Part shown: one piece after another, positions 7,448 to 8,494 of the stretch
How the letters are laid out: each line of letters opens with the position of its first letter
Numbering within the stretch: position 1 is the stretch's first letter
Source of the DNA: a virus
Strand: one strand, 5' to 3'
Length of the DNA: 33,990 bases
UHGV virus genome: UHGV-0171993
The notes under the pieces: generated by a model
Seen by the model: only the letters and a program-made list of their open reading frames with translations
What the model was told of the DNA's origin: nothing
Databases searched by the model: none
Program-made: the position numbers and the translations under genes

Positions 7448-8494
7448 ATGGCTAATACTGTAAAAATATCCAGTTGTGAGTCAATCAACGCTGATTGCCT
7501 GGAATTTATCCAGACCTTACCGGAAAACTCTGTCGATCTGATAGTCACAGACCCGCCATACTTTAAAGTGAAGCCCGAGGGCTGGGATAACCAGTGGAAG
7601 GGCGACGATGATTACCTGAAATGGCTGGACCAGTGTCTGGCGCAATTCTGGCGGGTACTGAAGCCTGCCGGAAGTCTTTACCTGTTCTGTGGTCATCGCC
7701 TGGCATCTGATATCGAAATCATGATGCGTGAACGCTTTAATGTGCTGAACCACATTATCTGGGCGAAGCCGTCCGGGCGCTGGAACGGATGCAACAAGGA
7801 AAGCCTGCGGGCGTATTTTCCGGCAACAGAACGCATTCTGTTTGCTGAACATTATCAGGGGCCATACCAGCCCAAAAATGACGGCTATGCGGCAAAGGGG
7901 CGCGAGCTTAAGCAGCACGTGATGGCTCCGCTGATTTCTTACTTTCGTGATGCGCGGGAATCACTGGGGATAACGTCAAAACAGATAGCGGAAGCCACCG
8001 GAAAGAAAAACATGGCTTCGCACTGGTTTGGTACCAGTCAGTGGCAGTTGCCGAACGAAGGCGATTATCTGAAATTACAGGCGTTGTTTGCGCGTGTTGC
8101 AGCAGAAAAACATCAGCGCGGTGAACTGGAAAAGCCACACCACCAGCTGGTCAGCACATACAGTGAACTGAACCGGCAATATGCCAGTCTGCTGGATGAG
8201 TACAAATCCCTGCGGCGTTATTTTTCCGTATCGGCTGCCGTTCCGTATACGGATGTCTGGACGCACAAGCCTGTGCTGTATTACCCCGGCAAACATCCCT
8301 GTGAGAAACCGGCGGATATGTTGCGTCAGATAATTACCGCCAGCAGCCATCCGGGAGATTTGGTCGCTGATTTTTTTATGGGGTCGGGGTCAACAATAAA
8401 AGCAGCATTATCGCTGGGAAGGCGTGCAATAGGTGTGGAACTGGAAGAAGAGAGATTTAACCAGACTGTAATTGAAATAAAAAATAATCGTTAA
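7448..8494 (+). CDS. DNA amino-methyltransferase (N6-adenine or N4-cytosine), orphan
   Basis: Catalytic motif IV TDPPY near the N-terminus and AdoMet motif I DFFMGSGST near the C-terminus (beta-class order); no adjacent restriction endonuclease gene. Confidence 0.8.
   Translation: MANTVKISSCESINADCLEFIQTLPENSVDLIVTDPPYFKVKPEGWDNQWKGDDDYLKWLDQCLAQFWRVLKPAGSLYLFCGHRLASDIEIMMRERFNVLNHIIWAKPSGRWNGCNKESLRAYFPATERILFAEHYQGPYQPKNDGYAAKGRELKQHVMAPLISYFRDARESLGITSKQIAEATGKKNMASHWFGTSQWQLPNEGDYLKLQALFARVAAEKHQRGELEKPHHQLVSTYSELNRQYASLLDEYKSLRRYFSVSAAVPYTDVWTHKPVLYYPGKHPCEKPADMLRQIITASSHPGDLVADFFMGSGSTIKAALSLGRRAIGVELEEERFNQTVIEIKNNR

What the first reader, a model, noticed from the sequence alone, without database searches (positions are those of the whole stretch)
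7448..8494. Orphan beta-class amino-methyltransferase in the cargo island
The protein carries TDPPY (motif IV) near the N-terminus and FxGxG (DFFMGSGST) near the C-terminus, the circularly permuted order of beta-class N6A/N4C methyltransferases, with a roughly 200-aa insertion between them that could be a target-recognition domain. No restriction endonuclease gene is adjacent, so it is a solitary methyltransferase, plausibly protecting phage DNA against host restriction or acting epigenetically in the lysogen.
Basis: partly seen in the sequence, partly recalled or inferred. Interest (0 to 1): 0.5.

Follow-up and report, generated by a model that had tools for sequence, protein, structure and literature searches.

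The report
Prophage copy of non-specific adenine methyltransferase M.EcoGII
The gene is a real, intact DNA methyltransferase, but it belongs to an already characterised and very common prophage family (M.EcoGII) that methylates almost every adenine rather than a specific motif and stays switched off in the lysogen, so the finding itself is ordinary.

Summary
The ORF at 7448-8494 (+, 348 aa) exists as described. TDPPY is at aa 34-38 and DFFMGSGST at aa 308-316, it matches Pfam N6_N4_Mtase (E 1.8e-44), and no restriction endonuclease lies nearby. It is not an unknown enzyme. It is about 85% identical over its full length to M.EcoGII, the characterised non-specific adenine methyltransferase of an E. 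coli O104:H4 prophage, and about 87% identical to a resurrected ancestor that also lacks site specificity. Similar DNA occurs in about half of 5,426 complete E. coli genomes and in phiP27 and many Stx2 phages. The gene sits just downstream of the antiterminator-Q-associated leader and terminator, in the slot where Stx phages carry stx. That position fits published data that the family is silent in lysogens. So a search for a "new motif in the lysogen methylome" would find nothing and would refute nothing. The most likely role is late-lytic, near-global m6A marking of progeny DNA to evade restriction. Two side observations may be new. A 65-aa winged-helix gene is co-conserved upstream in 54 of 77 loci. 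A roughly 135-nt structured RNA leader with strong covariation, absent from Rfam, abuts the start codon. A Kiwa defence cassette is the true low-GC cargo next door.

The parts
7448..8494 (+). M.EcoGII-family beta-class N6-adenine methyltransferase gene (348 aa)
   Evidence: ORF; PF01555 E 1.8e-44; 85% identity to M.EcoGII; 87% to Anc291 and 72% to SUPREM; 93% to phiP27 L24 and 86% to the phage 1720a-02 MTase; dN/dS 0.05-0.13
7547..7561 (+). Motif IV, TDPPY (catalytic), aa 34-38
   Evidence: Translation; invariant across 22 homologs
7853..8290 (+). Central variable region (aa ~136-281): helical target-recognition-like domain plus charged interdomain linker
   Evidence: Unaligned between the two core segments in PDB hits. 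AF2 model is helical at 147-254 and low-confidence at 251-286. 81% identical to the same region of M.EcoGII. The SUPREM paper describes an HTH-like TRD and a charged linker in M.EcoGII
8369..8395 (+). Motif I, DFFMGSGST (FxGxG, SAM binding), aa 308-316
   Evidence: Translation; invariant in homologs
7312..7447 (+). Conserved structured non-coding leader abutting the MTase start codon (three-way junction plus a hairpin; UGAUC one nt before the AUG)
   Evidence: MFE -63.8 kcal/mol, z -3.84. 49-sequence alignment. RNAalifold: 12 of 21 pairs with compensatory changes. 93.4% of cells paired vs 27-45% slid, 14 pairs with double changes vs 3-6 slid, 0/500 shuffles. Covariance model finds one hit per locus, always at the MTase start. 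No Rfam hit at E<=1
7284..7310 (+). Terminator-like hairpin (GCCTTC-loop-GAAGGC) plus T-run, overlapping the stop codon of the small ORF
   Evidence: Terminator scan; the stem is kept and the loop differs in phage 1720a-02
7100..7297 (+). 65-aa winged-helix protein gene co-conserved with the MTase (phrog_331; annotated TrmB-family or DprA-like wH)
   Evidence: phrog_331 E 5.8e-38. Present directly upstream of the MTase in 54 of 77 loci, from Escherichia to Xenorhabdus and Photorhabdus. dN/dS <=0.09. AF2 pLDDT 92.9. Generic MarR/IclR-like winged helix
6946..6979 (+). Terminator-like hairpin plus T-run closing the Q-associated leader (tR'-like); homology with MTase-less prophages ends right after it
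   Evidence: Terminator scan 6956-6969; stem and loop vary while pairing is kept across loci
6885..6945 (+). Candidate late-promoter / Q-utilisation leader (block GTTAAGAGTGGTTACTTCGCCACACAGCTTAAA)
   Evidence: Shared by all loci with the short PF06530-type Q, with or without the MTase, and absent from a locus with a different Q. The promoter hexamers are not resolved
5000..5359 (+). Antiterminator Q gene (context: the presumed activator of read-through into the MTase)
   Evidence: PF06530 E 2.9e-45
8663..8816 (+). tRNA-Thr(TGT) 8663-8736 and tRNA-Gly(TCC) 8742-8816, downstream members of the same module
   Evidence: ARAGORN; Rfam tRNA 67.6 and 65.6 bits; the same pair follows the MTase in E. 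coli prophages

Best explanation
The gene encodes an ortholog of M.EcoGII, a beta-class, SAM-dependent N6-adenine methyltransferase. The enzyme has no sequence specificity and acts without a partner endonuclease. It belongs to an optional module of the lambdoid late operon: small winged-helix gene, terminator, structured leader, MTase, two tRNAs. This module is inserted directly after the Q-associated leader and its terminator, in the slot where Stx phages carry stx. In the lysogen, transcription from the late promoter stops at these terminators, so the potentially toxic enzyme is not made. After induction, Q-modified RNA polymerase reads through and the enzyme is produced late. It then methylates a large fraction of adenines in replicating phage DNA before packaging. 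The progeny DNA enters the next host resistant to the many restriction enzymes that are blocked by m6A. Shown here: family membership, intactness, purifying selection, absence of an endonuclease, and position relative to Q, terminators and lysis genes. Taken from the literature: non-specificity, toxicity, and silence in lysogens for M.EcoGII and its homologs. Inferred: late Q-dependent expression and the anti-restriction benefit for this particular phage.
For: Identity: 296/347 (85%) to M.EcoGII over the full length. N-core 96%, central domain 81%, C-terminal part 73% to M.EcoGII; 87% to resurrected Anc291 and 72% to SUPREM. All tested ancestors methylate DNA and RNA, and M.EcoGII, Anc291 and SUPREM show no motif. 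M.EcoGII methylates adenine in any context, up to 99% of dA in vitro, belongs to 'a very large family' on E. coli prophages, is not expressed in the lysogen, and slows growth when overexpressed. Phage 1720a-02, named there as a close homolog, is 93% identical to M.EcoGII and 86% to the window protein, and it has the same Q, small ORF, leader, MTase arrangement followed by stx2. O111 STEC homologs give no methylation signal in lysogens. Late-operon position: the leader plus terminator is shared with MTase-less prophages and homology breaks right after the terminator. A second terminator-like hairpin lies before the MTase. Lysis genes lie downstream. Nin-region, Q and lysis genes flank the MTase in loci from many genera. 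In lambdoid and Stx phages, pR' is constitutively active but terminated at tR' in lysogeny, and downstream genes are late genes. Function is retained: dN/dS 0.05-0.13 and motifs are invariant. No endonuclease is present.
Against: No activity, methylome or expression data exist for this allele. It differs from M.EcoGII by about 15% overall and about 19% in the central domain, so a change of specificity cannot be excluded by sequence alone. The M.EcoGII sequence came from a machine-read PDF with a few OCR errors, so the identities are slight underestimates. The late promoter was not located with confidence: the sigma-70 scan found no strong site at 6880-6950. The first terminator stem in this window is weak (5 pairs). 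An anti-restriction benefit has been proposed in the literature but, as far as I found, never shown for any member in its native phage. The deeply conserved winged-helix partner and structured leader have no role in this simple model.
Confidence: 0.78

Rival explanations
1. It is a sequence-specific orphan methyltransferase whose central domain recognises a defined motif, which could be read from a methylome.
For: The protein has a TRD-sized central region. Databases label the family 'site-specific DNA-methyltransferase'. The closest site-specific relative, M.PflMI, has a similar predicted overall architecture.
Against: The central region is 81% identical to that of the non-specific M.EcoGII and 83% to Anc291. 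The protein is closer to Anc291 than M.EcoGII is, so it is bracketed by enzymes shown to be non-specific. M.PflMI is only about 27% identical to M.EcoGII and lacks the charged linker. The database label is an automatic family name.
Confidence: 0.07
2. It acts as an epigenetic regulator in the lysogen, methylating host or prophage DNA during normal growth.
For: Orphan MTases such as Dam and CcrM do this.
Against: Homologs are silent in lysogens of O104:H4 and O111. Constitutive expression of M.EcoGII harms growth. Here the gene lies behind two terminator-like hairpins with no recognisable promoter of its own.
Confidence: 0.04
3. Its physiological substrate is RNA (rRNA or mRNA), possibly directed by the co-conserved winged-helix protein. 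This would be analogous to the Stx-phage M.EcoPA8orf6770P-PNB-2 holoenzyme, which methylates 16S rRNA.
For: M.EcoGII methylates RNA in vitro, and its ancestors do so more efficiently. In phage PA8 a small winged-helix protein encoded just upstream redirects a prophage MTase to 16S rRNA. Here a winged-helix gene is co-conserved upstream in 54 of 77 loci under purifying selection.
Against: The PA8 enzyme is an MT-A70-family protein at another place in the phage genome. The window protein hits only PF01555, and the PA8 primer sequence is absent from the window. M.EcoGII is about 90 times faster on DNA than on RNA (Table S3) and needs no partner. 23 of 77 loci lack the winged-helix gene. Fold matches of the small protein are generic.
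Confidence: 0.07
4. It is a decaying, non-functional remnant in a cryptic prophage.
For: M.EcoGII was described as lying on a 'cryptic prophage' and as unexpressed.
Against: The ORF is intact, all motifs are conserved, and dN/dS is 0.05-0.13. The surrounding window encodes complete lysis, terminase, head and tail modules.
Confidence: 0.03

Closest known systems
M.EcoGII (and M.EcoGI) of E. coli O104:H4 C227-11, GenBank EGT69837.1; Murray et al. 2018, PMC5778455
   Same: Same length class (348 vs 349 aa), about 85% identity end to end, same motif order, same central domain and charged linker, prophage-borne, no endonuclease. Same late-region context as its 93%-identical relative in phage 1720a-02.
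   Different: About 15% sequence divergence, concentrated in aa 136-348. The C-terminal tail (…EEERFNQTVIEIKNNR) resembles the reconstructed ancestor Anc291 more than M.EcoGII. Activity was not measured. The neighbouring cargo differs (Kiwa here).
Phage phiP27 L24 'putative DNA methylase' and the DNA methylases of Stx2a/c/d-converting phages
   Same: 93% protein identity to L24. The small ORF, MTase and tRNA module is identical, sits between Q and the lysis genes, and the leader RNA is detected by the covariance model.
   Different: Those phages carry stx after the tRNAs, whereas this window has none. phiP27 has a GIY-YIG nuclease gene where this window has Kiwa. Different tRNAs (Ile/Arg vs Thr/Gly).
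Solitary beta-class MTases with solved structures (M.RsrI 1eg2, M1.MboII 1g60, CcrM 6pbd, 9c3u/8urk)
   Same: Catalytic core and SAM-binding segments align (E 1e-15 to 1e-24) with the permuted IV-then-I order.
   Different: Those enzymes are site-specific and have a much shorter or different region between the two core segments. Identity is low outside the motifs.
M.EcoPA8orf6770P-PNB-2, two-subunit prophage 16S rRNA methyltransferase (Gong et al. 2023, PMC10810198)
   Same: A prophage MTase with a small winged-helix protein encoded immediately upstream and a terminator in the operon.
   Different: MT-A70 family, located near the other end of the Stx phage genome. No sequence relationship was detected here.

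Membership tests
Beta-class N6A/N4C amino-methyltransferases (Pfam PF01555 N6_N4_Mtase) | Score above the curated Pfam gathering threshold over the whole domain | tested here: met
   152.7 bits vs a cutoff of 26.7, profile positions 1-219 of 221
Beta-class N6A/N4C amino-methyltransferases (Pfam PF01555 N6_N4_Mtase) | Permuted motif order: catalytic DPPY (IV) N-terminal, FxGxG (I) C-terminal, variable region between them | tested here: met
   DPPY at aa 35-38, FMGSG at aa 310-314; PDB alignments show two core segments, 10-115 and 282-335
M.EcoGII family (non-specific adenine MTases of enterobacterial prophages) | High full-length sequence identity to M.EcoGII, including the central domain and linker | tested here: met
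   85% overall and 81% in aa 136-270; inside the clade bracketed by M.EcoGII and Anc291/Anc284
M.EcoGII family (non-specific adenine MTases of enterobacterial prophages) | Location on a lambdoid prophage without a cognate endonuclease | tested here: met
   Window gene map; same context as 1720a-02 and phiP27
M.EcoGII family (non-specific adenine MTases of enterobacterial prophages) | Methylation of adenine in any sequence context (DNA, ssDNA, RNA) | not testable with these tools
   Needs expression plus LC-MS or SMRT/Nanopore. Inferred from phylogenetic bracketing only
M.EcoGII family (non-specific adenine MTases of enterobacterial prophages) | Transcriptionally silent in the lysogen | not testable with these tools
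   Consistent with two upstream terminator-like hairpins and the late-operon position. No expression data
Type II restriction-modification system | Cognate restriction endonuclease gene adjacent to the MTase | tested here: not met
   Neighbours within about 3 kb are Q, KwaB, KwaA, the wH ORF, tRNAs, holins and endolysin. The only nuclease domains in the 5' part of the window are RusA, DUF968/HNHc and a 121-aa HNH 6.5 kb away, all ordinary phage genes
MT-A70-type prophage rRNA methyltransferase with PNB-2 subunit (phage PA8) | MT-A70 domain MTase with PNB-1/PNB-2 genes upstream | tested here: not met
   Only PF01555 is hit; the PA8 primer sequence is absent at up to 3 mismatches
Known RNA families (Rfam 15), for the 5' leader | Match to any covariance model at E <= 1 | tested here: not met
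   Nothing on the + strand between 6780 and 8662
Kiwa defence system (neighbouring genes, not the finding) | Adjacent KwaA (membrane protein) and KwaB (DUF4868) genes | tested here: met
   PADLOC KwaB 1.4e-149 and KwaA 1.9e-83, full length; Pfam KwaB and NCBIfam KwaA hits

The most novel reading that the evidence does not exclude
The methyltransferase itself is known, but its native control module may not be. A ~135-nt structured RNA leader is fused to the start codon of M.EcoGII-family genes across Enterobacteriaceae, Erwiniaceae and Yersiniaceae. It has compensatory changes in its helices and an invariant GGUCA loop that could pair with the UGAUC just before the AUG, and it is absent from Rfam. 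A 65-aa winged-helix protein is co-conserved with it. Together they could form an undescribed regulatory device that keeps a toxic, genome-wide adenine methyltransferase off or low until the right moment of lytic growth. It might do so by sensing a metabolite, or the winged-helix protein might act on the leader or on the enzyme.
Probability: 0.45. Interest if true: 0.5.

Novelty: already known. Interest (0 to 1): 0.25.

Why it matters
As posed, the finding adds another copy of a well-studied, commercially used enzyme family, so it matters little. Two practical points follow. First, annotation pipelines call these genes 'site-specific DNA-methyltransferase', which invites fruitless motif hunts. 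Lysogen methylomes will be blank, and that is expected. Second, prophages carrying this module can probably produce virions whose DNA is broadly m6A-modified. That bears on host range, on transduction of cargo (here a Kiwa defence system, elsewhere stx), and on phage-therapy or cloning barriers. The side observations would matter more if confirmed. How a cell-toxic, non-specific methyltransferase is kept under control in its native phage has not been addressed, and the conserved leader RNA and winged-helix partner give concrete, testable handles on that question.

Tried and rejected
(1) Identity with the Stx-phage 16S rRNA methyltransferase M.EcoPA8orf6770P-PNB-2 was rejected. That enzyme is MT-A70 family, sits at another genome position, and its primer sequence is absent from the window.
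(2) The AlphaFold model of the MTase from a 22-sequence, low-diversity alignment had mean pLDDT 60. That is too weak for fold searching, so I used only its secondary structure.
(3) The idea that the small winged-helix protein resembles the m6A-sensing wH domains of DpnI or HhiV4I found no support. No such match appears among the 50 listed Foldseek hits, which are all generic MarR, IclR or O-methyltransferase N-domain matches at E > 1e-3. Its PDB sequence search gave nothing meaningful.
(4) I could not locate the late promoter. The consensus scan gives no convincing sigma-70 site at 6880-6950. By eye there are weak candidates: TAACGC, 17 nt, TATCGT at about 6891-6919, with TATCCT at the same aligned position in phiP27. 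These are unproven.
(5) The Rfam search of 6780-9400 found only the two tRNAs plus sub-threshold noise.
(6) The supplement of the M.EcoGII paper is not held. The sequence came from the SUPREM paper's machine-read Table S1, which has OCR errors (NHHIWA, RRRAIG, a dropped residue near aa 273), so the identities are lower bounds.
(7) The exact Q-Kiwa-MTase arrangement was not found in 5,426 complete E. coli genomes at 80% or more coverage. I did not identify the source organism of the window.
(8) The alternative leader helix AUGGGC:GCUCAU is 99.7% paired but shows only one-sided changes. I could not decide between it and the P1/P3 architecture, and the two may alternate.

Full report
OBSERVATION. 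It runs 7448..8494 on the + strand, starts with ATG and encodes 348 aa. TDPPY lies at aa 34-38 and DFFMGSGST at aa 308-316. The protein matches Pfam PF01555 (N6_N4_Mtase) at 152.7 bits against a cutoff of 26.7, across essentially the whole profile. Its only relatives among solved structures are beta-class amino-methyltransferases: M.RsrI, M1.MboII, CcrM, DpnA and an N4-cytosine MTase. These align as two core segments (aa 10-115 and 282-335) separated by about 165 variable residues. The 'about 200-aa insertion' is therefore roughly right for the variable region, although the motif-to-motif distance is 270 aa and about 100 of those residues are still catalytic core.

WHAT IT IS. The gene is not an unknown. 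Similar DNA occurs in 2,686 of 5,426 complete E. coli genomes and in 49 phage records, including phiP27 and many Stx2a/c/d-converting phages, always annotated 'DNA methylase'. The protein is 93% identical to phiP27 L24 and 86% identical to the methyltransferase of phage 1720a-02. Murray et al. 2018 (PMC5778455) describe M.EcoGII, a 349-aa beta-class enzyme from a prophage of E. coli O104:H4. It methylates adenine in any sequence context. The paper names the 1720a-02 enzyme as a close homolog and says the family is 'very large' and prophage-located. I took the M.EcoGII sequence from Table S1 of Ochiai et al. 2024 (PMC11551740). The file is machine-read with a few OCR errors, so the identities are lower bounds. 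The window protein is 296/347 (85%) identical to it end to end. By region the identity is 96% in the N-terminal core, 81% in the central domain and 73% in the C-terminal part. It is 87% identical to the resurrected ancestor Anc291 and 72% to Anc284 (SUPREM). M.EcoGII itself is 83% identical to Anc291. That paper reports that all tested ancestors methylate DNA and RNA, and that M.EcoGII, Anc291 and SUPREM show no sequence motif. The window protein is therefore bracketed by experimentally non-specific enzymes. A broad protein search returns over 3,000 relatives across Enterobacterales at 76-96% identity. dN/dS against eight homologs is 0.05-0.13 where measurable. The gene is intact and under purifying selection.

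SURROUNDINGS. The window is a lambdoid prophage. In order it carries nin-region genes (a small HNH, DUF551, Fic/DOC, DUF968), RusA, antiterminator Q (5000-5359), the cargo region, two holins, an M15 endolysin, lambda-type terminase, and head and tail genes. No restriction endonuclease is present, so 'orphan' is correct. Between Q and the MTase lie two minus-strand genes that are full-length KwaB (PADLOC 1.4e-149) and KwaA (1.9e-83). Together they make a Kiwa anti-phage system with GC of 0.34-0.38, against about 0.50 for the MTase. The same Kiwa cassette sits directly after Q in 33 E. coli genomes. There it is followed by the lysis genes with no methyltransferase. The exact combination seen in this window was not found in any complete E. 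coli genome.

HOW IT IS PROBABLY EXPRESSED. I aligned the region upstream of the MTase across phages and prophages. All loci with the short PF06530-type Q share a leader (window about 6885-6945, with the block GTTAAGAGTGGTTACTTCGCCACACAGCTTAAA). It ends in a hairpin plus T-run (6946-6979) whose stem and loop vary while pairing is kept. A locus with a different Q type lacks the block. In MTase-less prophages, homology stops immediately after this terminator and the holin follows. In MTase-bearing ones, the module follows: small ORF (7100-7297), a second terminator-like hairpin (7284-7310), a leader (7312-7447), the MTase, tRNA-Thr and tRNA-Gly. This is the slot where phiP27 and 1720a-02 carry stx after the same module. 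[quoted passage not shown] Published data agree with this position. M.EcoGI/GII are not expressed in the O104:H4 lysogen and M.EcoGII is deleterious when overexpressed. The O111 homologs give no methylation signal in lysogen methylomes. I therefore infer late, Q-dependent expression. I could not pinpoint the promoter hexamers.

MECHANISM AND RIVALS. The best explanation (confidence about 0.78) has two parts. The enzyme is a partner-independent, non-specific N6-adenine methyltransferase. It is made late in lytic growth and marks progeny DNA at most adenines, which blunts the many restriction enzymes that m6A blocks. This is the role Murray et al. proposed for the family. Its proposed refutation (no new motif in the lysogen) is actually the expected outcome. 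An epigenetic role in the lysogen (about 0.04) conflicts with the silence and toxicity of homologs. An RNA-directed role with the small winged-helix protein as a specificity subunit (about 0.07) is suggested by analogy with the PA8 prophage 16S rRNA methyltransferase. But that enzyme is an unrelated MT-A70 protein elsewhere in the phage, M.EcoGII needs no partner, and M.EcoGII strongly prefers DNA (Table S3). A dead relic (about 0.03) is excluded by conservation.

SIDE FINDINGS. (a) The 65-aa ORF upstream (phrog_331, function unknown) is present directly before the MTase in 54 of 77 loci, from Escherichia to Xenorhabdus and Photorhabdus, at 37-98% identity. Its dN/dS is 0.09 or less. Its model is confident (pLDDT 93) and is a minimal winged helix resembling MarR/IclR DNA-binding domains, but all fold matches are weak and generic. 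(b) The roughly 135 nt between the second terminator and the ATG are conserved at the nucleotide level whether or not the small ORF is present. They read as spurious ORFs in three frames, so the stretch is non-coding. In this window the stretch folds at -63.8 kcal/mol, z -3.84. On a 49-sequence alignment, RNAalifold gives a three-way junction with compensatory changes in 12 of 21 pairs. A hand-drawn structure (P1, long hairpin P2, P3, hairpin P4, plus GGUCA:UGAUC) has 93.4% of cells paired, against 27-45% when partners are slid. It has 14 pairs with double changes against 3-6 in the slid controls, and 0 of 500 shuffles reach the observed values. P2 has double changes in 8 of 11 pairs, and the P3 pair 52:76 is CG, AU, UA or UG. 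G-U tolerance indicates an RNA on the + strand. An alternative helix that is mutually exclusive with P1/P3 is 99.7% paired, but with one-sided changes only. A covariance model finds exactly one copy per locus, always ending at the MTase start. That includes seven loci not used in training. It finds none in MTase-less prophages, in the Xenorhabdus and Photorhabdus loci, or elsewhere in the window. No Rfam family matches. The invariant UGAUC one nucleotide before the AUG is complementary to the GAUCA of the 16S rRNA 3' end (my own knowledge), and an invariant GGUCA loop could sequester it. That pairing is 97% maintained but shows no covariation. This looks like a cis-regulatory leader that limits or times translation of a toxic enzyme. 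That reading is inference.

COMPARISON AND NOVELTY. The protein meets every testable criterion for the beta class and for the M.EcoGII family. The two functional criteria, non-specific activity and silence in the lysogen, cannot be tested here. It fails the criterion for an R-M system (no endonuclease) and is not the MT-A70 rRNA methyltransferase. The finding as given is already known biology, and I score its interest low (0.25). The most novel reading not excluded is that the family's native control module, the structured leader plus the winged-helix partner, is undescribed. I give that about 0.45 probability and moderate interest if true.

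Noticed in passing
window 7312-7447 (+): A ~135-nt conserved, structured non-coding leader abuts the MTase start codon. It forms a three-way junction plus a hairpin, with many compensatory base-pair changes across 49 loci. There is one copy per locus, always at the MTase ATG, and no Rfam match. It may be a translational control element for a toxic enzyme.
   Followed up: partly
window 7100-7297 (+): A 65-aa winged-helix protein gene (phrog_331, function unknown) is co-conserved immediately upstream of M.EcoGII-family genes in 54 of 77 loci across Enterobacterales. 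It is under strong purifying selection. Its AF2 model is confident, but the fold matches are generic (MarR/IclR-like).
   Followed up: partly
window 5381-6792 (-): A complete Kiwa anti-phage system (KwaB 5381-6265, KwaA 6271-6792; GC 0.34-0.38) is inserted on the opposite strand between the Q gene and the late leader. The same cassette occupies the same slot in 33 E. coli genomes, but without the MTase module. The combination seen here was not found in 5,426 complete E. coli genomes.
   Followed up: partly
window 6885-6979 (+): A short leader block ending in a hairpin plus T-run tracks with the Q type and is shared by prophages with and without the MTase. It is probably the pR'/qut region and tR', and would give a short terminated transcript in lysogens, analogous to StxS of Stx phages. 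The promoter hexamers are not resolved.
   Followed up: partly
Q-to-leader slot: window 5360-6880; L002 3740-4969; L003 2276-3839; L004 2788-3189: The position right after Q is a variable cargo slot. It holds Kiwa here, a GIY-YIG nuclease gene in phiP27, two unannotated minus-strand genes in E. coli 47-1826, a PemK/MazF toxin in E. coli P13-6, and nothing in phage 1720a-02.
   Followed up: partly
window 8817-9377 (+): The stretch between tRNA-Gly and the holin, where Stx phages carry stx and E. coli P13-6 carries TerB plus DUF3927, has no convincing gene here. It does have three terminator-like hairpins (9178, 9226, 9337) and a sub-threshold Rfam STnc100 match (9011-9207, 22.5 bits vs a gathering score of 47).
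   Followed up: no
window 7440-7447 (+): A nearly invariant GATC (a Dam site) lies within the UGAUC one nucleotide before the MTase start codon. It could be only the Shine-Dalgarno-like element, or it could also be a methylation-sensitive site.
   Followed up: no
window 2704-3198 (+) and 515-880 (+): The nin region carries a Fic/DOC-family ORF (164 aa, Pfam E 6e-11) and a small HNH endonuclease ORF (121 aa). Both are probably ordinary prophage accessory genes and are unrelated to the MTase.
   Followed up: no
L057-L086 (Xenorhabdus/Photorhabdus loci), about 100-300 nt upstream of the MTase: In these genera the winged-helix gene and MTase are still paired, but the leader is shorter and is not detected by the covariance model. 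L059 also carries KwaA/KwaB homologs about 2 kb downstream of the MTase.
   Followed up: no
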